Source: a virus. From it: DNA of 64,000 nt. The notes under the pieces are model-generated. The model was given only the letters and a program-made list of their open reading frames with translations, did not search any database and was not told the origin of the DNA. This document shows, piece by piece, positions 30,829-62,185 of the stretch. A program made the position numbers and the translations under genes. The stretch is from the IMG/VR virus record IMGVR_UViG_3300029858_000001, positions 91,123 to 155,122 of that record; one strand, given 5' to 3'. How positions within the stretch are numbered: position 1 is the first letter of the stretch; each line of letters starts with the position of its first letter.

Positions 30829-30861
30829 TCCTCAAAATGAGGAGGAAATTAATCCTCCTCA
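30829..30861 (-). promoter_or_regulatory. Two overlapping alternative hairpins spanning the TMP stop codon and the Dit-like RBS
   Basis: Alternative stems are ctcctca/tgaggag and tgaggagg/cctcctca. The downstream RBS gaggag could also pair with the shared arm. Confidence 0.35.
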
Positions 30862-33800: not shown

Positions 33801-36800
33801 CTCCACCTTTATCTTCTCCACTAACTGTAGTAGTATAATCTCCAGTTACATTTGGAACTTTTGAATTTTTTGCAGCTACGCTAACAATTTGGCCTATAGT
33901 TCTTTTAGCTCCTCTAATTTGATCTAAAGCTGCCGGGCTAGTTGGATTCTACATTGCAATAGCTATTGCTTCAAAAGCACTAAATAGCTATTGAAGCTAA
34001 GAAGTATCAAAATGAATTCCCGTTCTGCCCATAGCATTAAGCCATCCACACATATCATTAATATTTGTACTAAGAGGTAATAAATTCATAATTGCCTAAG
34101 TAGTATCTAAATTAACATTACCATTAATATTAAAATTACCATATTTATTAATGATTTCATCCATTTTAGAAGCAAATTGCTAAGTTTGAGTATTTATCTC
34201 ATCTTCATTAAAATTAAAAAGAGAAGACGTAGAATATTTTTCTTTCATCTATTCTATATAAGAAAAAATACCACCAAATTTATTTCTTATATTATCTAAA
34301 GCTTCACCTGCAGCTTGCTATTCTGTTTCATTACCATATAAAAATTTCTAAATTAATCCTTCATTATCAGCTTTCCGGTATTCTTCTTCAGTTAAATTAA
34401 ATAAATCTTTTATTTCATTTTTAATTTTTTTATTTTCTTCAGTTGTATCTTTTCCCTATTCTTCTAAATCTGCTACATTTTTTTTATATTCTTTTATATT
34501 TTCAATACCCTATTTTATTTCGGCTCCACGTAAATCTTTAAAAAATTTATTATAAATTTCTGATGCAGATTTACCTGTTTCTTCCATATGATCTAAATTA
34601 TAATTTAAATCATCAAGAGCTGTTGACACTCCTTCGATATCTTGATTATGAGTAGCCCAAGCTCGTAATCCCTTTTGACTGGCTTCATCATCTCTATAAT
34701 CAAAACCAGTCATTTCACTCATTTCTTTTACTGAATTAGCATCAGTATAAGCATTAGTTCTTAATAAATCAGATGTATATGCTCCATCAATATTAGCCAT
34801 ATATGCATCTATTATTCCTTGAATAATTTCTGCTTGGTCAGAAGAACTTAATTTTTTATAATAATCTAAATCATAATTATTTGTTTCATCAGTACCAACT
34901 AATTTTGCAATTTCTTCAGCATTACCGAAGATATCTAAAGCCTATTGTAATAGATAACCACCAGAATCATCTGTTAATCCTTTTTGCATTGCTTCTATCT
35001 AAGTATATTCTTTACCATTAAAAACATACCCGCCTTGTTTTATTCCTGTATCCCAAGCTTCTTGATGAGCTTCTGCAATGCTATGCTGTTCTTCAGCTCT
35101 ATCTATTCCAGCCTAAGTTAAAGCATTTTTGTCTTTAGTATCAAAATCCTTAACTTTTATATATTCATCTGGACCAGTCTAAACATAATAATCTTCAGGA
35201 TTTAATCCAGCCGCTTTAAATCCTTTAGTAATTTCATCATACTTTTCTTTGGTAATAGAACTACCAACATCTTGACCCATTAAATCAAAAATTTCAATTA
35301 ACAAATCTCTAAAAGTAGTAAAATCTTCTATAGGCAATTTATTAGCAGTTTCTTGCATCATATCATAGAAGCCTTTCCAAGCTCCTTCATCGTCTGATAC
35401 GACAATACCTAAATCTTCTAGAGTGTCAATAAATTCTTCCCAAGTTCCAGAAGACCAATCAAAATCAGCTATTTTATTTAACTAATCAAAAGTTAAATCT
35501 TTTCCTACCGTATTAATCGCTTCAGTAAACGCGGCAACTCCATTTTTGCCTGCCACTTTGAATATGTCTTCTGCAATCTAAGAAATACGAGATTTTAATG
35601 AAACACTATATCCTTCAAATTCGTCAATAGCTTTTGATATATCATCTTCATCTTTAAGCCCTAATATATACTTAAATGCTTTATTATTATTTATGTTTTC
35701 AATATTAGCGATCTAATGTGATGCTTCTTCTACTATAGCTTTACCCAATTCTTTACTACTAGTTACGCCTAACTCTTTCATCATATTAGACATATATGAT
35801 TTTACGGTTTCCTGCTATTCAGGCTCTAATATATTAAAATCTTTACCGAATAAACTCTATCCAATTAAATTCTATAAATCTTCATCTGTTAAATTCTATT
35901 CTAAAGCGTCTTTTAAATCCTTAAGCTAAGTTTCAGTAAAATTACTTAAATCACCATTATTACCAAAAAATTCTAAAATACCTTGACCAGTAATTCCTTG
36001 GTTATTCATACCAGTCTAAAATTTTTGAGCCATAGCATAAGTAGTTTGAAGTTCTTCTCCCATAGCTTCCATAACTGCTATAGACTAAGCGACTTCAGAA
36101 AAATTAATTGTAGAACCATCTTCTAATCTAAAACGTTTATTAGCTCCATCGCCTTCAACAGAATTCTTCTAATCTAATTTATAAGCTCTATCATTTTTAT
36201 CAACATTAATAGATTGTAAATAAGTATTCCACAAATCTTTTAATGCATTATCTCCGCCTTTAGAACCTCCAGCATTTCTTCGATAAGCTCCAATATCATA
36301 ATCTTCTCCATTATAATTCCAATTAAAATTTTCTCCGTTATAAAAACTATCTTTTATAGCCTTTATATTAGCGTCTACAGCCATTGTAGTCGTTTTAGCA
36401 TCTTCAGTAGACATAGTATCTAATCCAAGAGCCTATTGGATAGAAGCTTCTTTTGTTACCTATAAAGTTGCATCTGTATTTGCCTATATTACTTTTGAGA
36501 CATTAGATATAGCAGCTTGAACATCATCAGTATTAAATTTATCTGCAATTTTCTAGGCATAATCATTTAAAGTCGTACTATCATTGAGAGTTTCAAATCC
36601 ATTATTCTTTAATGCCTATTCGATAATACTAATTTGTTCTTCCTAACTTTTATTCTATAAATTTTCCTAATTATTTAAAATTAAATCTGCTATACCTGAT
36701 ATTACTGAAGTATATTGTCCATTTTTTGTTAATCCTCCAGTTTGGGTGCCACTCTAAATATTAAGAACATCCTAAAGATTACTTGTTAAGTCCTATTTAG

Positions 36801-39800
36801 CTTTTTCAATATTTAAGTTTTCTAAATTGCTTTGTTCATTAGCTAAAGCATATTGCTATTGAAGAATCTATTTATCATAGACAGACTATAATTTATCAAC
36901 AGCACTTTCATCTATCCAAATTTCGCCAGTGTCTTTTTTACCCCAAGCACCTTCCATATTCTTTAGCTCAGGATAAGTATTTAAAATATTAAGAGCTTCT
37001 TCATTAGCTTTAGTTAACTATGCACGCCATTCTTTAGTACCAACAGTACATTCATCTAAAGCAGATTTAACAGAGTTATAACTATCAAATACTGATTTTA
37101 ACTATTCAGCTTTATTCTTTGTTTCTTCTAACTAACTTTTAAAACTCTCAACAGCCTATTCAGAACGTTTAATTTGTTCTTCTATAGTAAAAGACTAAGC
37201 TGTATTATATACTTTAACCAATACAGCAATGGCAGCAACTACTGCTCCAATTATTAAAGCATATTTACCCAAAACAAGTAAAGATTTAGTAAACATTGCA
37301 TGAGTTGCCGCACCGCTAGCTGCTAATTGCTATTCAGCAGTTCCCGCAGAACCAGCAGCTACTCCCAATTCTTTAAGTTTGGCAGTATAAGCATCAAGAC
37401 CAGTTTGCATAATTTTAGTTCTAAACCCAGAACTATTCTCTATCTTTGTCTTTAAAGCTGCCTATAAATCAGACCCCTATAAAGACCCTCCTAAACCAGT
37501 CATTATTGATAAAATATTAGTACCTAGTCCCTTCCAATTAGTTCCAATTTCTTTTAATCCGCTAGCTAACTAATTTACTCCATTGATTAAAGAAGGAATA
37601 GCAAAACTCGCTGAAGTAATACTCTAAGTTAATTTTTCTCCAAAATCTAATTCACTGTTATTTAAAGCATTAAACATTCCTTTTAAACTATTGATTCCAA
37701 TAGCTAATTGAGAAATACCCTAAAAACTAGAAACTAATCCTTGAGAAAAACTGTATATAGATCCTTGACTAGCTTTTAATTCTGCGTTAAAAGCTTCAAT
37801 AGCACTCTCATATTTTTCAATAGCTCCTTTGTTCTACAAAAGAGCCTCTTTCTCATTTACGTAATCTGTAAGACACTATCTTAAGGCATTAGACTAAGCT
37901 TTTGTTAATTTTTCTGCTTTAATTTTCTAATTAACATAATTATCAATTTCAAGATTGACGTCTCTTAAATTATTAACTTCAGCTAATATATCTTTTCTAA
38001 GAGTACCTTTAGCACCATTACTTAGATTAGAATTGTTACCCTATTGAATTAACTAATTTAATTTACTATATCTTGGGTTATTCAAATTTAATTGACCAAA
38101 TTGAGAAATAAAATCTTTAAAAGAACCATTTGAATTAATTTTTAAAGACTTTAAATCTTGCATTGTTTTATCATTATAAAAATTATCGACAATCTTTTGG
38201 CCTTTTTTTAAGCTATTGTCAAAATAAATTACGCCTTTATCTCCACCAAATTTTTTATTATTATCTTCAAAAATTATATTGCGAGCATTACGTAAATTGT
38301 TATTACTCTAAGTTTGTTGAGCTTCTATGCTTTTTTTAGATTCTATAGCTATTTGTCCATAAGCCTAAGAAATTTTTAATAATGTCTATAATCTTAATTT
38401 ATCTGTTTCATTTAACTAATTATTTGCTAGCTATAAATCATAAGAAGCCTCTGCAGCTTTGACCATTGTAGTTGTTTCTAATTCAACTGAACCCTATTTT
38501 GTTAAATCAGGTTTTTCTTCATAAGTTGTAAAGGTTTTTAAAACATTTATCATCTACTGCTTCATAACCGCAGCCTAATTTTCAGCAGCTCCACTATCAA
38601 TGAATAAATTGGAAGCCATACGCTGCATATTATTTACAATATCAGGACCGAAACTCTTTAACATTAAAGTAGAAATGACACTTAATACGCCAGGTAATCC
38701 ACCTAATGAATCAATCAATTTGCTTGTAATATTTAATGTATCACTTAATGTATCATTTAATCCGATAAAAAATTTATCACTAACTAATTGCTTATAAATT
38801 TCTTCAAGAGAAGCTTGTACTCGCTTTTTAGAAGCTTCCCAACTTTCAGCATAAATATCAGCTTGTTCTTGTAAAGTACCTTCAGAATTTTTAGCCACTC
38901 CAACTAGCTCTTTAAAATAATCTTTATTCTCCATAAGATTAACTAATTGAGTGTATTGACGAACACCACCAACAGTCTATGCAAGAGCCACTTGTTCAGC
39001 ACGACTTAAACTATCCCACTTATTCATCATTTCATCAAGGATAGTATTCATATCTTTTAACTCACCCTATTGGTCTTTAATACTAATACCAACTTTTTCA
39101 AGGGCTTTAGAATATTTATTTAAATCAGTACCATCTTCAAGAGTTTCTCCGAGAGTCAAACCCTAAATACGAGCGAATAAAGTTTTAAGGCTATTACCTA
39201 CTGTGTTCGCACTTTCACGTGTTTTAGCAGTTAATGTAGCTAATGCAGATGTAGCATATTCATAACTAAGACCAATAGTATTAGCAACAGAAGCGAATTT
39301 CTATATACCTTCTGAGATTTCATCAGTACTAGAAGCAGTATATGCACCAAGCTTGGTCATTACATCGGCATAATATTCCAGAGATTTGCTGCCATCATAG
39401 AAGTTATTCCAAACAGCAGTTAACTAATCGGATATTTTAGAAGCACTTTCACCTGCGGCATTCGCCATTTTAATAGTAACTTCAGTACGGTCAACAACTT
39501 CTTTATCACTTAAACCCTATTGATAATAAATTAAAGAAGCATTAGTATAATTAGTAGTAGTTGTACTTAATGCTTGAGCAGCCTTATTTGCCTTTTCAGC
39601 AAACTCAGCCATTTGATCACTACTCTATCCAGTAACTATACGAATATCATTTAATGATCTATCTAAATCTTTTGCATAATAGTAAGCCTTCTATAAAGAA
39701 CCCTATACTCCATGCATTAAATTAGATGAAATTTGCCATTTGGCTGTATTAGCTAATGTCTTTTTAAAATTATCTAATAAAGCATTAGTTCTTTTTAAAG

Positions 39801-40182
39801 GAACTTCAGCATTAATAACAGACTATGCTAACGCAACAAATGCTTTATCACCTGTTGGACCCAGATTCTCTAAATGCGTAGCAAAATCCTAAAGAGTATA
39901 GCCACTCTAGCTCAAACTCTTTGAAAATTTTGATAAATCTAAACGTCCAGTATTAACATTAGTCGCCTAATCTAAAGCAATTTTTAACTCCTAAACTGCT
40001 GCCGAGGCTTCATCTATTTCTTTTTTAGTGGCATTAACATCAAAAAATTTAATATTTTTTGTTGCTATCTAATTCATTAAAGTATCTAATGAACTTTGTA
40101 AATCTCGTAATTGCTATTTAGCCTGACCTGTATCAGCTGTAAATCGCATATTAACATTATAATTAGCACTGTTATTAGCCAT
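30859..40182 (-). CDS. Tail tape measure protein, apparently a single ~3100-aa ORF once TAG is read as sense
   Basis: ATG 40182 with AAAGGAG RBS. Every track fragment over 9.3 kb (38575..38934, 36169..36414, 35179..35361, 34510..34800, 31636..31890, 31312..31506) is in the same frame as the start and the TGA stop. Ala/Gln/Leu-rich coiled-coil; LSRAEQVALAQTVGGVRQ region. Spot translation found no TAA/TGA, but this was not checked exhaustively. Confidence 0.5.
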
Positions 40183-40224
40183 AAAATAGCTCCTTTCTCT
40201 CATTATAATTTTCTATATATAAAG

Positions 40225-40901: not shown

Positions 40902-40930
40902 ATTATAACAAAAAAATTTTTCAAAGTCAA
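40902..40930 (-). promoter_or_regulatory. Consensus sigma-70-type promoter on the minus strand (TTGACT, 17 nt, TATAAT), preceded by three A5T5 tracts
   Basis: Minus strand reads ttgact ttgaaaaatttttttgt tataat. The aaaaattttt element is repeated 3x on the upstream side. Confidence 0.55.
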
Positions 40931-40938
40931 AAAAATTT

Positions 40939-42258
40939 TTACTAATCCTCAAAAATTTTTTCAAAATTCATACTAATAGGACTATATAAAGCTTGTTCCA
41001 TAGACATTCTTCTTTTATCATTTTCTAAGATACTTTTAGATCCCTATTTTTTATTAAAGTATAAATTCATTTCTATATCTTTTGCCAATTTAGCTGTTGA
41101 TAAAACTTTTAAGAATCCTTCTTTTTTAGGATTATTAATGACTAAAAATTTAGTACGACCAATATCATTAATAAAATTTGCCATTACATTCTAATAAGCA
41201 TACTTAGTATCTCCAACTCTTTGTTTAGCCCCTGTTAATTCATAAATAGCTCTAATTCTAAAAAACATTTTAGGTACATCATTATGCTCGGCCATTTTAG
41301 AATGCCTTGCCATACAATTTAACATACGAGCATATCTATATAACTTATAACTTGTATCTCCATCAGCTACAGTTAAAAAAACACGATAAGGATTAGTATG
41401 ACCTAAACCTATAAAACTATTTGATAAATAGTTTTTATCACTAAAAGTAGCTAATGATAAAGCATTAACTACTCGTTCTAACATTGTTGCGGTCGCTGTT
41501 ATTGAAATATTATAATTTAATCCTGTATTATCAGCTTTTATCTACTTACTCTAAATAGCGCCGACTTTACCATTTTCTTTAATTTGAGTATAAATAGTAA
41601 CAGCTTTTAAATTATTTTTTTGACGTTCTGTTGTAGTATTACCTGAATCTTTTTTTTCCTACCCAATTTTATAAGCTAGCCTAGAGAAATAATTTATTGC
41701 AGTTTTTGTTGCACTATCTATAACTTCATCACCAGCATTAATAATTAAATTTTTCATATTAATACTATCAACTAATTGTCCAGAACGATGTGTTTGAGGT
41801 AAAGGACCATAAGGCATTTCCATATTCTAAAAAGCATAGTCAATAGTAGTAATAAATTCATTCATAAAATTTTCTAATAAAGCACCACGTTCAGAACTAT
41901 TAGCTCCTTTTTTCACCAATCCTCCATTAGTAAATAAATTAGGATTTACCATATATAACTAATTAAATAATTCGGCCAAAGCCTAATCCTAAACTATTTT
42001 TACTAAAGACTCGGTAGTGAAAGACATTTTTTTACTATAATTATTTTGTATCTATTTAATTCCATTTAAAACTTCTTCTAATAATTTAGCATCCTGAACT
42101 TCTTTATTAGTAATCATATCATTTGGTCGAGCTGCTGCTCTATATGTTTCCAAAAGACTATTTAAATAAGTAGGAGTATTTACTTCATTTTTATATGAAA
42201 CTCCCTTTTGTTTATAATAAACTAACTAATTTTTCTAGGCATTTGTTAATTTTGCCAT
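40939..42258 (-). CDS. Hypothetical structural protein (~440 aa), TAG-rich
   Basis: ATG 42258 after the RBS and terminator. Track ORF 41191..41484 is in frame. TAG TAA at the end. Confidence 0.45.
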
Positions 42259-56220: not shown

Positions 56221-57285
56221 TTAGGATTTCATTTTTTCTTTACGAGAACTATTTCGGCATTTTTTGCATATACTATAAAATCCATCTTTACTTGTTTTAT
56301 TATAGGAAAAATATTTATTGTGAGCCAATTTAATTTGCCCACATCTACTGCATTTTTTATACTTACCTTTTTCTTGAGTCGTATAATACCATTCTAAATA
56401 TTTATCAACGGCTTTATCAGCAATAAGTTTTGGTATTTTATTGCGGAATAAACTTGATATATATTCTAAGCTGTGAGTAATATTAAATTCTTCTTGTAAA
56501 ATTTTTTGAATCTCTATATTTTGTAATCCATCAATTTTACATTCTACAATGCGCATTAACATAGGATAGTCAGCTAAGGCTTCATCGCAAATATTTTCAA
56601 AATCATAAATAAGATACCAAGTATCATCTTCAAAACGATCCCAACTGTCTTCTTTTAATCGAGAATAGTTACATAAGACACAAGAGCAAATTTCAGGATT
56701 CATTAATGAAATTCCTTCGGGAATTGGATATCCATCATCATCGAACATTTTTACATCTTCATCTAATTTAATTTTATATTTAGATCGTGTAAGTTTTACT
56801 GGTACTATTGGTTTTCGATAAGCATTTTTAATAACATATTGATCTTTGCGCATTTCTATTAATGCCTTTTTTATAGTGAAAGCATCTTTACCACTTACTA
56901 CTTTCATTTTTGCTTCCCAAGTTGTAATAGCGTCTTTTAATTGTTTTAAGCTAGGAATTTCTTCTAAATCTTTTTTTGTAATTGTAACTTTTGGCTAAAA
57001 TATCATATTCTTATCACTATTAATTAAATTATATATACCATCTTCACCATTCTCTAACTGGGAAACAAGTCCTTCGAAAGAAGTTTCACGTTTATTAACT
57101 GTCATTAATCTATTATCAGTTAATATTTTCTTTTCTTTTTTTTCTTGTTTCTCCATACATAGAATTAGATAATCTGCGAGGATTTCTAAATACTTTTCAT
57201 TAGGATTTGGATTTTCCTCTAAAATTTTTTTTACTAATTCATTTCGTTCTTCAGGAGTTTCAAGAGTATAATCTAATTTTATCAA
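56221..57285 (-). CDS. First late-operon protein (~354 aa) with a C-terminal CxxC...CxxC zinc ribbon; possible DNA-binding or regulatory protein
   Basis: TTG 57285 after AGGATTGGAGG. Track ORFs 56995..57342 and 56221..56907 are in frame, joined through TAG 56995. The ATG at 57342 lies inside the -35 box. Confidence 0.45.
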
Positions 57286-57313: not shown

Positions 57314-57342
57314 ATTATAACACAAAAAATTTGCAAAGTCAA
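57314..57342 (-). promoter_or_regulatory. Consensus promoter for the 43-kb late operon (TTGACT, 17 nt, TATAAT on the minus strand)
   Basis: Revcomp of 57337-42 is ttgact. Revcomp of 57314-19 is tataat. The spacer is exactly 17 nt. Confidence 0.6.
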
Positions 57343-57396
57343 CCATGGCCAAAAATTTTTATAGTATTTAATAAAAAAATTATGTAAAATGTAAAA

Positions 57397-57425
57397 TTGA
57401 CAATTATAAAAATTTTTTATATAAT
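57397..57425 (+). promoter_or_regulatory. Divergent consensus promoter (TTGACA, 17 nt, TATAAT) for the plus-strand early genes
   Basis: ttgaca attataaaaatttttta tataat. Confidence 0.6.
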
Positions 57426-57454: not shown

Positions 57455-57610
57455 ATGAGAAAACCTCGTGGTATTTTAGGTAGTATGGCTTCTAAAGCTA
57501 AGCGTAGAGCAACTAATAGCGCAACTAGAGCTGTTTATCAACTTATGTGGGGTGAAAATCCTAAACAGCAAGGAGCTTATAATCCTGTTAAGGAACGTAA
57601 GAAAAAGTAA
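57455..57610 (+). CDS. Small basic protein (51 aa)
   Basis: AAAGGAG RBS. Sequence MRKPRGILGSMASKAKRRATNS... Confidence 0.4.
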   Translation: MRKPRGILGSMASKAKRRATNSATRAVYQLMWGENPKQQGAYNPVKERKKK

Positions 57611-58112: not shown

Positions 58113-58141
58113 TTGACAAAAAACAAAAAATTTTGTAAAAT
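58113..58141 (+). promoter_or_regulatory. Promoter-like element (TTGACA, 17 nt, TAAAAT)
   Basis: ttgaca aaaaacaaaaaattttg taaaat. Confidence 0.45.
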
Positions 58142-58202: not shown

Positions 58203-58403
58203 ATGCTGAAAACAGCTTATACAAGAAAACTCGATACAGTTGGACGTTTAATGATTCCTTCTAAACTTCGTGAAGAATTGCATATGGTAAATGGTCATAA
58301 TTATGAATTTTATATTGACGAAGTAGATGGTAAGACTTTTTTATGTATTGAATGTCCTGAAGCCAGTGACGCCGTAGCTCTTGCAAAAGAAACGTTGGAA
58401 TAG
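58203..58403 (+). CDS. AbrB/SpoVT/MazE-family swapped-hairpin DNA-binding protein
   Basis: KLDTVGRLMIPSKLREEL matches the AbrB-N GRvviP..iR motif. RBS AAAGGAG. ATG 58203. Confidence 0.6.
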   Translation: MLKTAYTRKLDTVGRLMIPSKLREELHMVNGHNYEFYIDEVDGKTFLCIECPEASDAVALAKETLE

Positions 58404-58439
58404 AATGGGTATCGAGTAATTAAAGAATAATTAGATTAA

Positions 58440-58475
58440 AGCGGGAAAATATTTTCCCGCTTATTTTTTTTTATA
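58440..58475 (+). terminator. Rho-independent terminator
   Basis: aagcgggaaaatattttcccgctt followed by T10. Confidence 0.8.
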
Positions 58476-58595
58476 AAAATCGTTTTTTAAAATTGAAATA
58501 ATTATCGTTTTCTGAAATTAAAATTATTATCGTTTTTTGAAATTGAAAATGAGTTTAGAAATTATTATCGTTATCTGAAATTGGAATTGAGTTTA
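58469..58595. repeat. Four iteron-like direct repeats (core tatcgtttt[ct]tgaaatt), spaced 25, 25 and 38 bp
   Basis: Units start at 58469, 58494, 58519 and 58557. The last two carry an extra gagtttagaaattatt module. Confidence 0.6.
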
Positions 58596-58654
58596 GAAAT
58601 TATTTTGCCAGGCAGGAAGATTTATCCATTTTTTCCATTTTTTTTACACGAAAC

Positions 58655-58725
58655 CCTGCCCCCCACTTCACTTGACTAAAGTGTTAAAGTCTATTGTCTT
58701 ACTTTACTTGAGTGAAGTGAGTTAG
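58655..58725. repeat. Long imperfect palindrome (cacttcacttgactaaag ... ctttacttgagtgaagtg)
   Basis: 14 of 18 positions match between the arms. Flanked by C-runs. Confidence 0.4.
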
Positions 58726-58774
58726 ATACGACTAACCCCCGAAAAAAATATTTCGTTTTTTTTGAAAAAAGTTC

Positions 58775-58802
58775 TTGACTTTTTGGAAATAGCCGCTATA
58801 AT
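58775..58802 (+). promoter_or_regulatory. Near-consensus promoter P1 (TTGACT, 16 nt, TATAAT)
   Basis: aaaaagttcttgact ttttggaaatagccgc tataat. Confidence 0.6.
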
Positions 58803-58885
58803 GATAATCAGAAATCAACCACAAGGCAATGCAAAACAAGCCGCAAGGCAAGCGAAAAAAATTCAAGAAATTTTGAAAAAAGTTC

Positions 58886-58914
58886 TTGACAAACAGAGCG
58901 CCATGTGGTACAAT
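58886..58914 (+). promoter_or_regulatory. Consensus promoter P2 (TTGACA, 17 nt, TACAAT), a tandem duplicate of the P1 upstream context
   Basis: The shared upstream motif ttgaaaaaagttcttgac occurs at both P1 and P2. Confidence 0.6.
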
Positions 58915-58921
58915 TCAAAAT

Positions 58922-59173
58922 GTCAAGAGGACAGAGACAGACCACAGCAAGTTCTCTTGTGTGACGTAAAATGACCGGCAGACGCGGACAGCACCGAACC
59001 GCTTGCACCTTGTAAAGTGAATTTAAGCCAAACGCCTGCACCGCACAGCGGGCGCAATGGTAGAACATGGAAAGTGCGGTGCAAGCTGTAGGGCAGTCCA
59101 ACGCCTACGGCAGACAGCATCACGGACAGGTGACACCTAACAGTCAAATAATATGTAAAGGATTGGTAAAATC
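58922..59173 (+). ncRNA. GC-rich, highly structured ~250-nt leader (or small RNA) between P2 and the first ORF, with mutually exclusive helices
   Basis: gcttgcacc (58996) and tgcaccgcac (59037) can each pair with the overlapping gtgcggtgcaagc (59074-86). GC here is ~55 % against ~30 % elsewhere. Confidence 0.3.
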
Positions 59174-59578
59174 ATGGTTATAAACATATTCACAAGTAAG
59201 GAAGATAAGGAAAAAGCTATCAAGACAGAGCTTGCTGAGCAGGCACAGGACTTGGTAGGATATGTCAAGCAGTACCATATGTTGGGGGACGAGTTCGACT
59301 ATGAACGCACCCTTGAGACATATCATTGTTATGCGGCAAGTAACATTGACGCATGGGATAGCTTAACATGGGCTATTGATAGCGCAGAATATGACCTTGA
59401 GCATACGCCATATAATATGGATATGGAAACCGGCTGTCCATGTGCTGAATATGATGCAATTTACCAGAAGCTGGCAGATATGCGCGAAGAAGCCGAGGAA
59501 TGGGCAAACACCTTTGAGCATATGTTCGAGGACTTCTTTAATAAGCTGTATGACCTGTTATATGGTGAAGAAGCATAA
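59174..59578 (+). CDS. Acidic hypothetical early protein
   Basis: Intact ORF with RBS. TAA stop. Confidence 0.5.
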   Translation: MVINIFTSKEDKEKAIKTELAEQAQDLVGYVKQYHMLGDEFDYERTLETYHCYAASNIDAWDSLTWAIDSAEYDLEHTPYNMDMETGCPCAEYDAIYQKLADMREEAEEWANTFEHMFEDFFNKLYDLLYGEEA

Positions 59579-59631
59579 GCTTCTTCACCCATTCACCTAA
59601 CAACACTTTGACATTATATGGAGGTAAAACT

Positions 59632-59967
59632 ATGAACCGTATCAATAGAAGAGCCATTCGCAAGGAAGCGCTGATGAACACCATCGAGCGCGTTAATACT
59701 GCCATCAGCAAGGTTAACTTCTCTGACCCTAATGGCAAGGACACCTTCCACAAGCTGTTGGACAAGAAGGACTATATTGCTCAGCAGATCGCCGAAGCCA
59801 GCTACACCGAGTATTCGATGAAAGCTAACTATAATGAGGTCAAACGCATTCTCTCTCATATGGATGAAGGCGGCTGTGCTGAGTGGGTCAAGTGGGACAT
59901 TAAGCAGCTGGCAGCAAGTCGGCGTCGCTGGGCTATCGCCACAAGCAAGCAGATTTGGTTGGGCTAA
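59632..59967 (+). CDS. Hypothetical early protein
   Basis: ATG 59632 after GGAGGT. Confidence 0.5.
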   Translation: MNRINRRAIRKEALMNTIERVNTAISKVNFSDPNGKDTFHKLLDKKDYIAQQIAEASYTEYSMKANYNEVKRILSHMDEGGCAEWVKWDIKQLAASRRRWAIATSKQIWLG

Positions 59968-60000
59968 TTGCCCAACCAACCACAGAAAGGGGACAACATT

Positions 60001-60189
60001 ATGTACGCTATCTATAATCACACCACAGGCAAGTATGGCATTATCTACCGCAGTCTGACCGTAGCACGGTCTATGGCTCACGCTTACAGCATATGGGCAA
60101 AGAATGACAGAGATGTCATTGATATGCAGACTGGCGAAGTAATGAGTCAGTTTAGCAAAGGACACGAAACTTATAGGGCTATGGCTTAA
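60001..60189 (+). CDS. Hypothetical early protein (62 aa)
   Basis: ATG 60001 after AGAAAGGGGA. Confidence 0.45.
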   Translation: MYAIYNHTTGKYGIIYRSLTVARSMAHAYSIWAKNDRDVIDMQTGEVMSQFSKGHETYRAMA

Positions 60190-60224
60190 TTGCCATAGCC
60201 TACCAATAGAAAGGAGATAACATT

Positions 60225-60530
60225 ATGTTCTCTACAAAAATCGCATTCGTTAATTCGACTGGCAGCACCTATGACTGCGCCGAGTTCTTTACAAAATGCC
60301 CTTGGTGCGATAGCACCGAAGAAGCCACCAAGAGAAAGAAAGAATGGCTGGGGCGGCTTGAGGAAGTGCTGTACATTATGCAAGAGCTGGAACCTTGTGA
60401 CAGCCGCAACTGGGCACATAACTTGTGGGACAAAGAATCTGTGGAATTCAATTTCCATAATCTGACAAAACATCTGGTCATTCTGATCAAAGGTCCATTC
60501 AGTTTTCAGGTAATGGTGAGGGACATTTAA
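60225..60530 (+). CDS. Hypothetical Cys-containing early protein
   Basis: AAAGGAG RBS. CPWCD motif. Confidence 0.5.
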   Translation: MFSTKIAFVNSTGSTYDCAEFFTKCPWCDSTEEATKRKKEWLGRLEEVLYIMQELEPCDSRNWAHNLWDKESVEFNFHNLTKHLVILIKGPFSFQVMVRDI

Positions 60531-60598
60531 GTCCCTCTACCGCTTACCAACCGCACAATCGAGCGCATGAATTGAATTTTCGGAAAGGAATTTTTGAA

Positions 60599-60751
60599 AT
60601 GAAAAATTTCAAACTCGCTATTTACCTTACCTCAGTCATAGTCTTACTCTGGATTAGCATTTCATTTTGCAATGTAGTTGCGCATAATAATCCGGCTGAT
60701 GGGGCTTATGAATATCCCTCTTGGAACTTTTTCGTGATGATGGAGGATTGA
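60599..60751 (+). CDS. Possible 50-aa single-TM peptide
   Basis: RBS GGAAAGGAA. Hydrophobic core LAIYLTSVIVLLWISISF. Confidence 0.3.
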   Translation: MKNFKLAIYLTSVIVLLWISISFCNVVAHNNPADGAYEYPSWNFFVMMED

Positions 60752-60752
60752 A

Positions 60753-60998
60753 ATGAAAAATCAACATAGATGGTCAGGCGAATGGACACAGAGGGGAGCG
60801 CTTGGAGCGCATGACCTCTTTACTCTCAATGGCGAATGGGATGATATTCTCTATATCCCAGTTGGCGCAGAGGGCTGGGCGGATGGGGCTAATGCTTTCA
60901 ACCTCTCAACTCAGGAATTTGAAATCATTCCTCAACATTGGGAAGTCTTTAAGGTAGACCTTGATAGGTCTAGGGCAAATTGGAGTGAAGAGGGTTAA
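60753..60998 (+). CDS. Trp/acidic-rich hypothetical early protein
   Basis: Intact ORF with GGAGGA RBS. Confidence 0.5.
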   Translation: MKNQHRWSGEWTQRGALGAHDLFTLNGEWDDILYIPVGAEGWADGANAFNLSTQEFEIIPQHWEVFKVDLDRSRANWSEEG

Positions 60999-61013
60999 GA
61001 CCCTCTTCACTTA

Positions 61014-61205
61014 ATGAAAGGAATAATTGAAATGGAAATGGTCAGAACCTTGCTCGATGGCTGGCTGCCCGTGAAGCCATTCTCTTATGTATATGGCATT
61101 TATTGGGATTATCTCTACACTGATTCCTATAAAGGAATTGAATTCAATGTCTATAAACATATAACTAACGAAATGTGTGTTGTTCTCACAAGTGAAATAA
61201 TTTGA
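61014..61205 (+). CDS. Hypothetical small protein
   Basis: ORF only. Weak RBS. Confidence 0.3.
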   Translation: MKGIIEMEMVRTLLDGWLPVKPFSYVYGIYWDYLYTDSYKGIEFNVYKHITNEMCVVLTSEII

Positions 61206-61219
61206 AAGGAAAAACGAAA

Positions 61220-61531
61220 ATGATAAACATTCGCACAATCAAGAAACTGACTGATGGCGATGGTCTGACCCTTAAGAATGGAAAAATCAAGAGGTACAAG
61301 AGTGGCTATCAGGTAGCTACTAATGGCGTCGAAGTCATCAGTCCTGAAATGGCAATACAGGCGGTTCGAGAGTTCAAAGGCACTTGCGGCATTTGGCTTG
61401 AAAATGGCAGATACTACATTGACATTTCTAAACGAGTCAGCACCAAACGCGAAGCAGTTGAAATTGGCAAGAAATGTAATCAGCTTTCAATTTACAGATG
61501 GCGCGGCAATCCTGCCTGCCTTTATATTTAA
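61220..61531 (+). CDS. Small early protein, paralog A of a tandem pair
   Basis: MINIRTIKKLTDGDGLTLKNGKIKRYKSGYQV. Confidence 0.5.
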   Translation: MINIRTIKKLTDGDGLTLKNGKIKRYKSGYQVATNGVEVISPEMAIQAVREFKGTCGIWLENGRYYIDISKRVSTKREAVEIGKKCNQLSIYRWRGNPACLYI

Positions 61532-61554
61532 GATTTGAAAAGGAGAAATAAAAA

Positions 61555-61872
61555 ATGATTAACGTTAGAACTATCAAGAAAATGCTGGACGGCGATACCC
61601 TGAATATCAAGAACGGGAAAATCAAGAAGTACAAGGGCGGTTTTCAGGTGAATGTGCAGACCTATGAACATGACAGTCCTGAATCTGCTATCTTCTGGGC
61701 GAAACTGCTTAACACTCTGGATGGCGGTTGCAGTATTCAATTCAAAAATGGAAAATATTACGTCAGCACCACGAAGCACGCCTATACCAGACGACAGGCA
61801 AGGGAAATGGCAAATGATGCAGGTCAGGGCGCTATTTATGAATGGCAGAATCTGGCTCATATGGCAGTTTGA
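61555..61872 (+). CDS. Small early protein, paralog B
   Basis: MINVRTIKKMLDGDTLNIKNGKIKKYKGGFQV. It is followed by a hairpin plus T-run at 61880-61915. Confidence 0.5.
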   Translation: MINVRTIKKMLDGDTLNIKNGKIKKYKGGFQVNVQTYEHDSPESAIFWAKLLNTLDGGCSIQFKNGKYYVSTTKHAYTRRQAREMANDAGQGAIYEWQNLAHMAV

Positions 61873-61879
61873 TCCTGAA

Positions 61880-61915
61880 ATTCCAAGGGCTGGAAATTGG
61901 AAACAGTTTCCAGCC
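61880..61915 (+). terminator. Rho-independent terminator
   Basis: gggctggaaattggaaacagtttccagccc followed by attttt. Confidence 0.6.
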
Positions 61916-62185
61916 CATTTTTCAAATCCTCTTCTTTAATTCATTATCACTTTAATCAAATGAATTGCCTCGCCGGGGCGTGGCGAAATTGATATATCCA
62001 CAGCAAGCTCGCCACGCCCCGCATTTTCCATTTAATACCAATTCCGAATATTTCCAGCCAAATTCTACCATATCTGGTATTACATTCCATTTCCCATATC
62101 CTACCAGCTTATGGTATATAATTCCATACCAAATATTTCCAGAATCTTTGTGCATATTGACGAATAAAAAAATTTAACTTTCCTA

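What the first reader, a model, noticed from the sequence alone, without database searches (positions are those of the whole stretch)
58440..59173. Candidate replication-origin / control region: terminator, four iterons, a long palindrome, two tandem consensus promoters and a structured GC-rich leader
An AbrB-type DNA-binding gene sits just upstream, followed by its terminator. Then come four direct repeats of tatcgtttt[ct]tgaaatt, with 25/25/38-bp phasing at 58469-58595, a ~70-bp imperfect palindrome, and duplicated promoters P1/P2 that share the upstream box ttgaaaaaagttcttgac. The ~250-nt leader has ~55 % GC, and a single 3' segment (gtgcggtgcaagc) can pair with either of two upstream segments. 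This layout resembles iteron-type origins combined with an attenuator or riboswitch-like switch. It could also encode a small RNA.
Basis: inference. Interest (0 to 1): 0.6.

Follow-up and report, generated by a model that had tools for sequence, protein, structure and literature searches.

The report
Phage early promoters with boxA leader RNA
This is the early-gene switchboard of a gut phage that reads TAG as an amino acid: two strong tandem promoters feed a conserved, folded leader RNA carrying a ribosomal-RNA-type "boxA" anti-termination signal, and nothing beyond the repeats points to a replication origin.

Summary

The window is a TAG-recoded, 29% GC phage distantly related to phAss-1. The region opens its first early operon (59174-61872).

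Comparison with about 18 relatives changes the interpretation:
- The best-conserved piece is the 3' half of the leader (59000-59150). It is 85-95% identical, against 65-75% for the adjacent genes.
- It folds as a hairpin (P3) whose loop forms a pseudoknot with 59074-59080, followed by a second hairpin (P4). Compensatory changes support it (95% of cells paired, 8 covarying pairs, 0 of 500 shuffles).
- Just upstream lies CCTTGTAAAGTGAAT (59008-59022). The relatives' version is identical to the boxA found directly before 23S rRNA genes and a CRISPR array in other bacteria, and close to Clostridia spacer boxA.
- The proposed alternative pairing is lost in 13 of 18 relatives. The leader has no terminator and no Rfam match.

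The repeats vary from 1 to 4 copies and share a motif with the promoter upstream box. GC skew flips 1.1 kb away, with gene orientation. No initiator gene or DnaA-box cluster is nearby.

Most likely this is an early-transcription control region with a nut/rrn-like antitermination leader. An origin is not excluded.

The parts
58203..58430 (+). AbrB/SpoVT-type (swapped-hairpin) DNA-binding protein gene. It is 66 aa to the in-frame TAG at 58401-58403, and 75 aa if TAG is read as Gln (TAA at 58428-58430). Its own promoter-like site is at 58113-58141.
   Evidence: family hits; relative L005 has CAG where the window has TAG; promoter-like site.
58439..58471 (+). Intrinsic terminator of the AbrB-like gene: a 10-bp stem, a 4-nt loop and a T9 tail.
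   Evidence: Conserved with compensatory changes in L004 (GGCGAGAA..TTCTCGCC).
58477..58604 (.). Array of four direct repeats (iterons) with core TTATCGTTTTYTGAAATT. Starts at 58477, 58502, 58527 and 58565. The last two units are 38 bp and carry an added GAAAATGAGTTTAGAAATT. GC is 17.6%.
   Evidence: Relatives have 1-4 copies.
58606..58744 (.). Transition block between the AT-rich and GC-rich DNA. It contains TTGCCAGGCAGG; the C-rich signature ACACGAAACCCTGCCCCCC (58646-58664); the imperfect palindrome 58664-58719; the local hairpins 58698-58704/58715-58721 and 58721-58725/58732-58736; and a closing C5 run.
   Evidence: The C-rich signature recurs at the same transition in distant relatives. 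The hairpin 58698-58721 shows a compensatory change in L001 (CTTGCTT/AAGCAAG).
58745..58767 (.). Fifth, degenerate iteron copy (74% to the reference). It abuts the P1 upstream box.
   Evidence: family D2.
58762..58802 (+). P1: upstream box TTGAAAAAAGTTCTTGAC, -35 TTGACT (58775-58780), 16-nt spacer, -10 TATAAT (58797-58802). The -10 is degraded in L001, L002, L010 and L208.
58873..58914 (+). P2: the same upstream box, -35 TTGACA (58886-58891), 17-nt spacer, extended -10 TGgTACAAT (ending at 58914). Consensus-like in all 18 relatives. The same box-plus-promoter type recurs before early genes of distant relatives, often as tandem pairs.
58921..59173 (+). 5' leader RNA of the first early operon, about 253 nt. 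The start is inferred from the P2 -10. There is no terminator inside it.
58924..58959 (+). Hairpin H1 (CAAGAGGAC / GTTCTCTTG) with a C/A-rich loop. Three unrelated stem sequences form it in relatives (L001 GCAAGGG/CCCTTGC; L006 CGAAACACG/CGTGTTTCG).
58984..59002 (+). Hairpin H2, a 4-bp stem (GCGG/CCGC) placed just 5' of the boxA-like element, in the boxB position of rrn leaders. The stem varies as GCCG/CGGC, GCTG/CAGC, GTCG/CGGC and GGCG/CGCC.
59005..59022 (+). boxA-like element GCA-CCTTGTAAAGTGAAT. Relatives carry GAACCTTGAAAAGTGAAT, GAACATTGACAAGTGAAT or GAACCTTGAAAACTGGAT.
59027..59061 (+). Hairpin P3: GCCA..CG.CCTGC [loop ACCGCACA, 59040-59047] GCGGG.CG..TGGT.
   Evidence: pair 126-143 U-A x9 / C-G x8; L006 changes four pairs on both sides, and a further pair goes G-U to G-C.
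59040..59080 (+). Pseudoknot. The P3 loop ACCGCAC (59040-59046) pairs with GTGCGGT (59074-59080). The linker 59062-59073 contains the invariant AGAAC (59062-59066).
   Evidence: helix 3: A-U to U-A in L005; C-G, U-G and U-A at its last pair. L006 has GTCTAAG / CTTAGAC at the same place.
59085..59111 (+). Hairpin P4: GCTGTAGG [11-nt loop] CCTACGGC.
   Evidence: G-C to A-U in L005 and in L205; U-G in L197.
59157..59176 (+). Shine-Dalgarno AAAGGA and the ATG (59174) of the first early gene.
59174..61926 (+). First early operon. It holds at least eight small genes with no in-frame TAG, at 43% GC. It closes with a strong terminator at 61887-61916 plus a T-tract.

Best explanation
This is the transcription start region of the first early operon of a TAG-recoded phage that probably infects Clostridia.

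Shown or directly read from sequence:
- Two tandem consensus promoters, P1 and P2, sit here. They are of the type read by the host's main sigma factor. P2 is the invariant one.
- They would drive a roughly 253-nt untranslated leader that runs straight into the first early gene.
- The leader is a conserved folded RNA on the + strand. In order it has hairpin H1, a small hairpin H2, a boxA-like element, then hairpin P3 whose loop forms a pseudoknot with a downstream segment, then hairpin P4.

Inferred mechanism:
- The boxA-like element recruits host NusB and S10 (NusE) to the elongating polymerase, as in rRNA operons and lambda nut sites.
- This would make early transcription fast and resistant to termination, especially Rho-type termination on the long untranslated leader, across the 2.7-kb operon.
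- The pseudoknot domain is either a further docking site for a protein or the polymerase, or a stability or translation element for the first gene.
- The upstream direct repeats, one copy of which abuts P1 and which share TTGAAA...GTT with the promoter upstream box, are most likely binding sites for a regulator of these promoters. The adjacent AbrB-like protein is the obvious candidate.
For: Phage identity and position
- TAG recoding: ORFs of at least 200 codons rise from 9 to 29 when TAG is read through. The minus-strand late genes hold up to 107 in-frame TAGs.
- Terminase, portal, DNA polymerase and a sigma-like gene are present. The nearest GenBank record is phAss-1 (PMC10607447).
- The early genes have no TAG, and the operon ends at the terminator at 61887.

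Promoters
- Hexamer matches are 11 of 12 for both P1 and P2.
- P2 is conserved in 18 relatives.
- The same upstream box and promoter type occur in distant relatives before GC-rich early genes, often in pairs.

Leader conservation
- 59000-59150 is 85-95% identical to relatives, while the flanking coding sequence is 55-82%.
- L005 keeps 59004-59170 at 90% while its flanks are about 70%.

Leader structure
- For P3, the pseudoknot and P4 together, 95.3% of cells are paired, against 24-44% when the partners are slid.
- Eight pairs change on both sides, and 0 of 500 shuffles reach that.
- L006 replaces the whole 7-bp pseudoknot with a different complementary pair of sequences.
- Many G-U pairs place the structure on the + strand.
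- H1 and H2 form from unrelated sequences.

boxA
- The exact 15-mer of the relatives lies, in sense orientation, directly upstream of 23S rRNA in L348, L381, L386, L349 and L400.
- It lies 26 nt before the first repeat of a Calothrix CRISPR array. That is a known boxA context (PMC7665894).
- GAACCTTGAAAA is the cyanobacterial ITS boxA (PMC8461337).
- The 16S-23S spacers of Clostridia carry GCACTTTGAAAACTGCATA (C. difficile) and GCACATTGAAAACTGCATA (Acetoanaerobium).
- The motif also sits downstream of the same promoter type in other phage contigs that have unrelated leaders. That is 5 of 84 hits, against 0 of 113 for a control 15-mer.

Repeats
- The core recurs in distant relatives at the same place.
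- A fifth copy abuts P1.
Against: - There are no transcription or binding data. The start site, NusB/S10 binding and antitermination are all inferred.
- The host is unknown, so the match to the host's own rrn boxA could not be checked.
- The boxA-like element is less conserved than the pseudoknot domain. About 7 of its 15 positions vary among relatives.
- No intrinsic terminator lies inside the operon for antitermination to overcome, so any benefit would have to be against Rho or for speed.
- The genome scan stopped at 120 rows, and most of those hits are chance matches inside ORFs.
- The pseudoknot domain has no assigned function, and the covariance model finds it only in this narrow clade.
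- Nothing links the AbrB-like protein to the repeats except adjacency.
- In several metagenome relatives the promoter-leader module has a different upstream sequence. The repeats and the promoters are therefore separable.
Confidence: 0.6

Rival explanations
1. Iteron-type replication origin. The four direct repeats bind a phage initiator, the AT-rich DNA around them melts, and transcription from the neighbouring promoters activates the origin.
For: - The array is the strongest tandem repeat in the 64-kb window, and it is non-random.
- It lies in 17.6% GC DNA.
- The repeat core is kept in distant relatives at the same place.
- The cumulative GC-skew minimum is nearby, at about 57 kb.
Against: - The skew sign change is at 57.3-57.4 kb, exactly where coding strand flips. 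That is 1.1 kb from the repeats, so it carries no independent information.
- No initiator or Rep-like gene lies within about 3 kb. The polymerase and helicase genes are 45 kb away.
- There is no DnaA-box enrichment and none in the region.
- Copy number drops to one in some relatives, and the zone is the least conserved.
- The repeat shares sequence with the promoter upstream box, and one copy touches P1.
Confidence: 0.15
2. A ligand- or protein-sensing leader (riboswitch-like, or a translational operator). The conserved pseudoknot with its invariant linker AAUGGUAGAACAUGG forms a binding pocket that controls translation or stability of the first early gene. The boxA resemblance would be incidental.
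For: - Invariant unpaired nucleotides sit inside a covariation-supported pseudoknot.
- The domain lies 60-150 nt upstream of the ribosome-binding site.
- The domain and the first gene travel together in all relatives, including L006.
Against: - There is no terminator and no conserved alternative helix.
- No conserved pairing to the Shine-Dalgarno sequence was found.
- No Rfam family matches, even at E up to 10.
- The fold energy is only 1.5 sd below shuffles.
- The boxA match is too specific, and recurs in too many other leaders, to be incidental.
Confidence: 0.15
3. A DNA-level site at a genome landmark, such as a packaging or terminal-repeat boundary or the first-injected end. The repeats and the C-rich signature would be recognised by terminase or an injection-control protein, and the early operon would begin just inside the end.
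For: - The abrupt switch from 29% to 43% GC happens here.
- The signature T-run + CCCGAAAC..CCCCCC is kept at this switch in distant relatives.
- Early genes next to a terminus is a common arrangement in phages with terminal repeats (own knowledge).
Against: - No contig end among the fetched relatives coincides with the site.
- phAss-1, whose record was linearised with PhageTerm, has no such motif in the 39.5 kb of the record examined, which includes its start.
- The terminase genes are more than 3 kb away and on the other strand.
Confidence: 0.08

Closest known systems
rRNA-operon boxA / nut-like antitermination sites (NusB-S10 nucleated complexes; also boxA in CRISPR-array leaders)
   Same: - The linear motif matches. 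The relatives' 15-mer is identical to the sequence directly upstream of 23S rRNA genes and of a CRISPR array in other phyla.
- It matches 15-17 of 19 positions of Clostridia spacer boxA.
- It is promoter-proximal and in sense orientation.
- A small hairpin sits just 5' of it, as boxB does in rrn leaders.
   Different: - It sits in a phage mRNA leader, not an rRNA or CRISPR transcript.
- It is followed by a 90-nt conserved pseudoknot domain that rrn leaders lack.
- No boxC was identified.
- Binding and function are untested.
Lambda nutL / nutR with N protein
   Same: - It is a phage early leader with boxA followed a few nucleotides later by a hairpin.
- The site precedes a short early operon.
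- The second gene of that operon encodes a 111-aa protein whose N-terminus is arginine-rich (MNRINRRAIRKEA). That motif is kept even in relatives at 31-40% identity.
   Different: - There is no sequence similarity to any N family (Pfam: no hit).
- The hairpin is an 11-bp interrupted stem engaged in a pseudoknot, not a 5-bp GNRA-like boxB.
- The host is Gram-positive.
- There are no internal terminators to read through.
Tandem strong early promoters of virulent phages (T7 A1-A3; SPO1 host-takeover module)
   Same: - There are two or more consensus host-type promoters in tandem at the start of a cluster of small early genes.
- Later transcription is handed to a phage-encoded sigma-like factor (56221-57156, PHROG 5767).
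   Different: - The shared 18-nt upstream box, the long structured leader and the GC-rich composition of the operon are particular to this group.
Iteron origins (lambda ori; plasmid iteron replicons)
   Same: - There are four direct repeats in AT-rich DNA next to active promoters.
   Different: - There is no initiator gene in or beside the repeats.
- Spacing is irregular (25/25/38).
- Copy number is not conserved.
- There are no DnaA boxes.
Cis-acting antitermination RNAs (HK022 put, B. subtilis EAR)
   Same: - It is a structured RNA, and EAR also has a pseudoknot.
- It lies in the leader of a long operon on a phage or mobile element.
   Different: - There is no Rfam match to either.
- The architecture is different.
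- boxA is present here, which put and EAR do not need.

Membership tests
Iteron-type replication origin | Three or more direct repeats in regular phasing | tested here: met
   Four copies at 25/25/38 bp; 0 of 100 shuffles reach 4. The phasing is irregular.
Iteron-type replication origin | Initiator (Rep / O-like) gene containing or adjoining the repeats | tested here: not met
   The neighbours are an AbrB-like protein, a 145-aa protein and small early proteins. None has an initiator-like family hit in Pfam, PHROGs or NCBIfam. The replication genes lie at 1-14 kb.
Iteron-type replication origin | Strand-composition inflection at the site, independent of gene orientation | tested here: inconclusive
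   The skew flips at 57.3-57.4 kb together with the coding strand, 1.1 kb from the repeats.
Iteron-type replication origin | DnaA boxes or another host-initiator site cluster | tested here: not met
   22 matches in the window against 20.8 expected, and none between 58000 and 61900.
Iteron-type replication origin | Initiation of replication at the site | not testable with these tools
   This needs marker-frequency or origin-cloning experiments.
boxA / nut-type processive antitermination site | Sequence match to rrn boxA | tested here: met
   The 15-mer is identical to the sequence just upstream of 23S rRNA in five genomes and of a CRISPR array. It is close to C. difficile, Acetoanaerobium and Priestia spacer boxA and to the cyanobacterial consensus (PMC8461337). 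The host's own rrn could not be checked.
boxA / nut-type processive antitermination site | Located in the transcript, sense strand, promoter-proximal | tested here: met
   It lies 94 nt downstream of the P2 -10 on the + strand. Transcription itself is inferred.
boxA / nut-type processive antitermination site | Accompanying hairpin (boxB) | tested here: met
   H2 lies 5 nt upstream and has five stem variants. P3 begins 5 nt downstream and shows covariation.
boxA / nut-type processive antitermination site | Binding of NusB-S10 and termination-resistant elongation | not testable with these tools
   This needs EMSA and in vitro or reporter read-through assays.
boxA / nut-type processive antitermination site | Phage N-type protein (lambda-type systems only) | tested here: inconclusive
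   The product of gene 2 has a conserved arginine-rich N-terminus but no family match.
Riboswitch / transcription attenuator | Conserved, mutually exclusive helices | tested here: not met
   The partner at 59002-59010 is broken in 13 of 18 relatives.
Riboswitch / transcription attenuator | Intrinsic terminator or sequestered ribosome-binding site in the leader | tested here: not met
   There is no terminator between 58915 and 61887 on the + strand apart from one weak site inside a gene. No covarying pairing to the Shine-Dalgarno sequence was seen.
Riboswitch / transcription attenuator | Match to a described RNA family | tested here: not met
   Rfam 15 gives nothing at gathering score, and only noise at E up to 10.
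AbrB / SpoVT / MazE swapped-hairpin DNA-binding proteins | N-terminal looped-hinge-helix domain | tested here: met
   PDB SpoVT E=9e-4, AbrB E=3.5e-3, Abh E=0.02. Pfam MraZ is above its cut-off. PHROG 4681 E=1.5e-7. All matches are modest.

The most novel reading that the evidence does not exclude
This would be a lambda-nut-like antitermination system in a TAG-recoded Clostridia phage. It would combine a host-type boxA, a clade-specific pseudoknotted RNA acting as the docking site, and the arginine-rich 111-aa product of the second early gene (59632-59967) as an N-like factor. Together they would convert host polymerase into a termination-resistant form for the early programme. The pseudoknot domain would then be a new class of protein- or polymerase-binding antiterminator RNA.
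Probability: 0.2. Interest if true: 0.7.

Novelty: new variant of a known kind. Interest (0 to 1): 0.5.

Why it matters
Phages that reassign TAG are abundant in the gut, but their gene regulation is essentially undescribed. The phAss-1 paper (PMC10607447) never mentions promoters, repeats or non-coding elements, and my literature searches found no report of boxA elements in such phages.

This locus gives a concrete, testable picture of how such a phage starts infection:
- Early genes use the standard code and are GC-rich.
- They sit behind conserved tandem host-type promoters.
- Their leader borrows the host's rRNA antitermination signal and adds a new conserved pseudoknot RNA.

If confirmed, three things would follow:
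- boxA/Nus hijacking by phages would extend beyond the lambdoid phages of Proteobacteria.
- A new RNA motif would be added to the catalogues.
- Strong, portable expression parts (promoter plus leader) would become available for poorly tractable gut Clostridia.

The same boxA-like 15-mer in the leaders of mobile elements in Clostridia genomes suggests the strategy is widespread.

Tried and rejected
- **Rfam.** At gathering score on the whole window, and at E up to 10 on 58300-59400, it gave nothing meaningful.
- **tRNA / tmRNA.** ARAGORN found none in the window, so the GC-rich leader is not a suppressor tRNA.
- **Megablast against GenBank phages.** No match.
- **Relatives of the first early protein in IMG/VR.** None confirmed. 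Relatives were reached through the sigma-like gene instead.
- **Single-sequence folding.** The z-score is only -1.5 on either strand, so it is uninformative without relatives.
- **RNAalifold consensus.** It proposed long-range pairs and a different P4 register. I rejected that P4 register because the compensatory changes in L005 and L205 fit GTAGG/CCTAC.
- **H1 and H2 pair counts.** They could not be counted by column, because MAFFT puts the stem variants out of register. I assessed them by folding each sequence.
- **First screen of genome hits for nearby 16S signatures.** It found none. The motif lies before 23S, which Rfam then showed.
- **Covariance model of boxA + P3 + P4 (R1).** It finds only the close clade and L006 (same contig as L234). 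Elsewhere it matches only the boxA part.
- **phAss-1.** It has no recognisable counterpart of the motif, the C-rich signature or the GC jump in the 39.5 kb of the record examined.
- **DnaA boxes.** Not enriched.
- **A small ORF in the leader.** Rejected because TAA stops are frequent in all frames and the substitution pattern is compensatory rather than codon-like.
Full report
**What the window is**

Reading TAG as a sense codon raises the number of ORFs of at least 200 codons from 9 to 29. It also joins the minus-strand block 14-57 kb into long genes, one of them 3114 codons with 107 in-frame TAGs. PHROG matches identify large terminase, portal, a capsid-region protein, a 1315-aa DNA polymerase, a Dda-like helicase and a sigma-like factor at 56221-57156. 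The nearest GenBank record is the TAG-to-Gln phage phAss-1, with 49% identity in the capsid-region protein. Its authors predict a host in the Clostridia (PMC10607447).

- No tRNA and no Rfam family is found in the window.
- The finding lies just right of the point where coding strand switches. That point has divergent promoter-like sites at 57314-57342 (- strand) and 57397-57425 (+ strand).
- The finding also sits exactly where base composition jumps. The replication and late blocks are 29-30% GC. The following 2.7 kb are 43% GC.

**Checking the observation**

- **AbrB-like gene (58203-58403).** It matches SpoVT, AbrB and Abh N-terminal domains in PDB, Pfam MraZ and PHROG 4681.
- **Terminator.** 58439-58462 plus T9.
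- **Repeats.** The core TTATCGTTTTYTGAAATT occurs four times, at 58477, 58502, 58527 and 58565. Chance expectation is 0.97, and no shuffle of 100 reaches four. TRF gives this array the two highest scores in the whole window.
- **Palindrome.** Arms of 19 nt, 84% complementary, 18 nt apart. It is somewhat shorter than described.
- **Promoters.** P1 (58775-58802) and P2 (58886-58914) each match 11 of 12 hexamer positions. P2 has an extended -10. The shared 18-mer occurs exactly twice in 64 kb.
- **Leader GC.** 50% overall, and 55% in its 3' part.

**Relatives**

A scan of IMG/VR with the sigma-like protein returned 80 loci.

- Seven of them (L001-L006, L010) align through the region.
- A pattern scan of metagenome contigs added 13 loci, which brought the set to 18 distinct leader sequences.
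- All relatives share the order: AbrB-like gene, terminator, repeats, C-rich transition block, promoters, leader, first early gene.
- In some metagenome contigs, however, the promoter-leader module has an unrelated upstream sequence. The pieces are therefore separable modules.

**Conservation profile**

- Left of 58400, the window is about 90-100% identical to its closest relatives.
- The repeat zone 58450-58550 drops to 34-65%, with copy-number changes.
- P1 is at about 60%, and its -10 is degraded in four relatives. P2 is invariant.
- Inside the early region (coding sequence 55-82%), 59000-59150 stands out at 85-95%.
- L005 keeps 59004-59170 at 90% while its flanks are about 70% or unalignable.
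- The most constrained object here is therefore the 3' half of the leader, not the repeats.

**The leader is a structured RNA**

I tested a hand-derived structure on the 18-sequence alignment A3. It comprises hairpin P3 (59027-59061), a pseudoknot between the P3 loop (59040-59046) and 59074-59080, and hairpin P4 (59085-59111).

- 95.3% of cells form standard pairs, against 24-44% when the 3' partners are slid by 1-3 columns.
- Eight pairs change on both sides. The shuffle mean is 1.8, and 0 of 500 shuffles reach the observed value.
- Individual events:
  - P3 pair 126-143 is U-A in nine sequences and C-G in eight.
  - Pseudoknot pair 136-167 is A-U, but U-A in L005.
  - Pseudoknot pair 137-166 is C-G, U-G or U-A.
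  - P4 shows G-C to A-U changes independently in L005 and L205.
- The divergent relative L006 keeps P3 with changed pairs. It replaces the pseudoknot arms ACCGCAC/GTGCGGT with GTCTAAG/CTTAGAC. It scores as unpaired only because MAFFT shifts its register by three columns.
- Numerous G-U pairs put the structure on the + strand, the strand P2 transcribes.
- Upstream, hairpin H1 (58924-58959) is built from three unrelated stem sequences. The 4-bp hairpin H2 (58984-59002) has five stem variants.
- Between P3 and the pseudoknot 3' arm, AAUGGUAGAACAUGG is invariant in the close clade, and AGAAC survives in L006.

These counts come from related sequences, and I drew the structure partly from them. They are strong support, not proof.

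**The alternative-pairing idea**

In the window, GGTGCAAGC (59078-59086) can also pair with GCTTGCACC (59002-59010). Thirteen of 18 relatives have GAAC for GCAC there, which puts an A-G mismatch in the middle of the helix. No intrinsic terminator lies in the leader. A terminator/antiterminator switch is therefore not supported.

**The boxA lead and its test**

One short stretch, CCTTGTAAAGTGAAT (59008-59022), is shared even with L006, where it reads CCTTGAAAAGTGAAT. From memory it resembled the boxA antitermination element of rRNA operons, so I tested that.

*Other phage contigs.* An exact scan of IMG/VR found the 15-mer in other phage contigs. There it sits downstream of the same promoter type but in otherwise unrelated leaders (L216, L219, L224/L281, L247/L265/L274/L284). 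With a strict promoter filter, 5 of 84 non-homologous hits qualify, against 0 of 113 for a control 15-mer.

*Species-representative genomes.* A scan of these genomes stopped at 120 rows. Most hits were chance matches inside ORFs. The informative ones were:
- In five loci the motif lies in sense orientation immediately upstream of a 23S rRNA gene: L348, L381, L386, L349 and L400.
- In Calothrix it lies 26 nt before the first repeat of a 35-repeat CRISPR array. CRISPR leaders are an established boxA context (PMC7665894).

*Published and Firmicute sequences.*
- The cyanobacterial ITS boxA is given in the literature as GAACCTTGAAAA (PMC8461337). That is identical to the phage GAACCTTGAAAA.
- Firmicute 16S-23S spacers, retrieved through rRNA-bearing records in the plasmid collection, carry:
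  - GCACTTTGAAAACTGCATA in C. difficile;
  - GCACATTGAAAACTGCATA in Acetoanaerobium;
  - TGTTCTTTGAAAACTAGATA in Priestia.
- Each is preceded by a small hairpin, as H2 precedes the phage element.

The sequence, position and context criteria for boxA are therefore met. Binding of NusB-S10 and any effect on termination remain inferred. The element varies at about 7 of 15 positions among the phage relatives. That is within the natural range of boxA, but it is less constrained than the pseudoknot.

**How it most likely works**

*Shown:*
- consensus promoters;
- a conserved + strand RNA structure;
- a boxA-identical motif in the leader;
- an uninterrupted operon of at least eight small TAG-free genes, ending at a strong terminator (61887-61916).

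*Inferred:*
- Host polymerase starts at P2, with P1 as an upstream helper where it is intact.
- NusB-S10 loads on boxA as it emerges.
- The modified complex then resists Rho on the 250-nt untranslated leader and transcribes the early operon quickly.
- The pseudoknot domain may dock a further factor, or it may act on stability or translation of the first gene.

One lead points to a lambda-N-like partner. The second gene (59632-59967) encodes a 111-aa basic protein. Its arginine-rich N-terminus, MNRINRRAIRKEA, is kept in relatives at only 31-40% identity. It matches no family, so this remains speculation.

**The repeats**

- Copy number is 2-4 in close relatives and 1-2 in the 72%-identity group. 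In that group the unit is ACCGTTATYTGAATTGAAAAAAGTTYT.
- That unit contains the TTGAAAAAAGTT(C/T)T motif that precedes the -35 of the early promoters.
- In the window, a fifth, degenerate copy abuts P1 (family D2).
- This favours a set of binding sites for a regulator of the early promoters. The neighbouring AbrB-like protein is the obvious candidate.

Against an origin:
- the skew flip is explained by gene orientation;
- no initiator gene is near;
- there are no DnaA boxes;
- the array is poorly conserved.

None of this excludes an origin, and I leave it at about 15%.

**Comparison with known systems, and novelty**

- The promoters resemble the tandem early promoters of T7 and SPO1.
- The leader works like an rrn or lambda nut site.
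- The pseudoknot domain has no Rfam counterpart, and a covariance model finds it only in this clade.
- My literature searches found no description of boxA elements in phages of Firmicutes, or of regulatory elements in TAG-recoded phages. That search covers open-access papers only.
- I therefore class it as a new variant of a known kind: a boxA-type antitermination leader with a new structured RNA module, in a newly recognised phage group.

**Verdict**

There is a real, conserved, unannotated RNA element with a specific and testable mechanism, but the mechanism belongs to a known class and nothing has been shown experimentally.

Noticed in passing
window 1-57300 (whole late block 14000-57300, minus strand): The phage reads TAG as a sense codon. 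Late genes carry up to 107 in-frame TAGs (30859-40203, 3114 codons). The early genes from 59174 on have none and stop at TAA or TGA. No suppressor tRNA lies in this 64-kb window.
   Followed up: partly
window 58401-58430; L005 8712-8740: The AbrB-like gene ends at TAG, and the frame continues nine codons to TAA. In L005 the same codon is CAG (Gln). The protein could therefore exist as a 66-aa form without suppression and a 75-aa form with it, which would be a possible timing device.
   Followed up: partly
window 58600-61900: The first early operon is 43% GC in a 29% GC genome, and the jump is abrupt at about 58610. Early regions of distant relatives are likewise GC-rich (L012, L019, L056). Early genes may be tuned to a GC-richer host's tRNA pool, or they may be a horizontally exchanged module.
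   Followed up: partly
window 58646-58664; L019, L012, L022, L075: A conserved signature, T-run + C(C/A)CGAAAC..C..CCCCCC, marks the AT-to-GC transition in every relative examined, including those whose flanks are otherwise unalignable. Its function is unknown.
   Followed up: partly
window 59632-59967: The second early gene encodes a 111-aa basic protein. Its arginine-rich N-terminus (MNRINRRAIRKEA) and its C-terminal SRRxWxIA are conserved down to 31% identity. The N-terminus is reminiscent of the RNA-binding arm of lambdoid N proteins. It has no family match.
   Followed up: partly
window 59174-59578: The first early gene product (134 aa) is very acidic, with 32 Asp/Glu against 9 Lys/Arg, and has no hit in Pfam, PHROGs or NCBIfam. 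Being acidic and first in the operon, it is a candidate DNA mimic or anti-restriction protein, by analogy with T7 gene 0.3.
   Followed up: no
L329/L405, L309/L316/L341, L325, L296, L395 (genome contigs): The same boxA-like 15-mer sits in long GC-rich leaders in Clostridia genomes. It often lies just downstream of a sigma-like or HTH gene, and in L309 and L325 about 170-200 nt upstream of the Rfam 'pemK RNA' motif. These look like mobile-element leaders using the same device.
   Followed up: partly
window 61220-61531 and 61555-61872: Two adjacent early genes are paralogues (MINIRTIKKLTDGDGLTLKNGKIKRYK... and MINVRTIKKMLDGDTLNIKNGKIKKYK...). A related gene follows an early promoter in L056.
   Followed up: no
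window 57314-57425: A divergent pair of consensus promoter-like sites sits at the strand switch. The - strand site is TTGACT-17-TG-TATAAT, facing the sigma-like gene. The + strand site is TTGACA-17-TATAAT, a 12 of 12 match. The + strand site precedes a 51-aa basic ORF (57455-57610) that is conserved in distant relatives.
   Followed up: no
window 58811-58858: Between P1 and P2 lies a 22-nt imperfect tandem repeat (CCACAAGGCAATGCAAAACAAG / CCGCAAGGCAAGCGAAAAAAAT). Its sequence resembles the loop of hairpin H1. P1 with its short leader therefore looks like a partial duplication of P2 with the start of its leader.
   Followed up: partly
window 40909-40965: A 20-nt tandem repeat, CAAAAAAATTTTTTCAAAGC, is present at 2.9 copies (TRF score 65). 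It lies in the short gap between two late genes.
   Followed up: no
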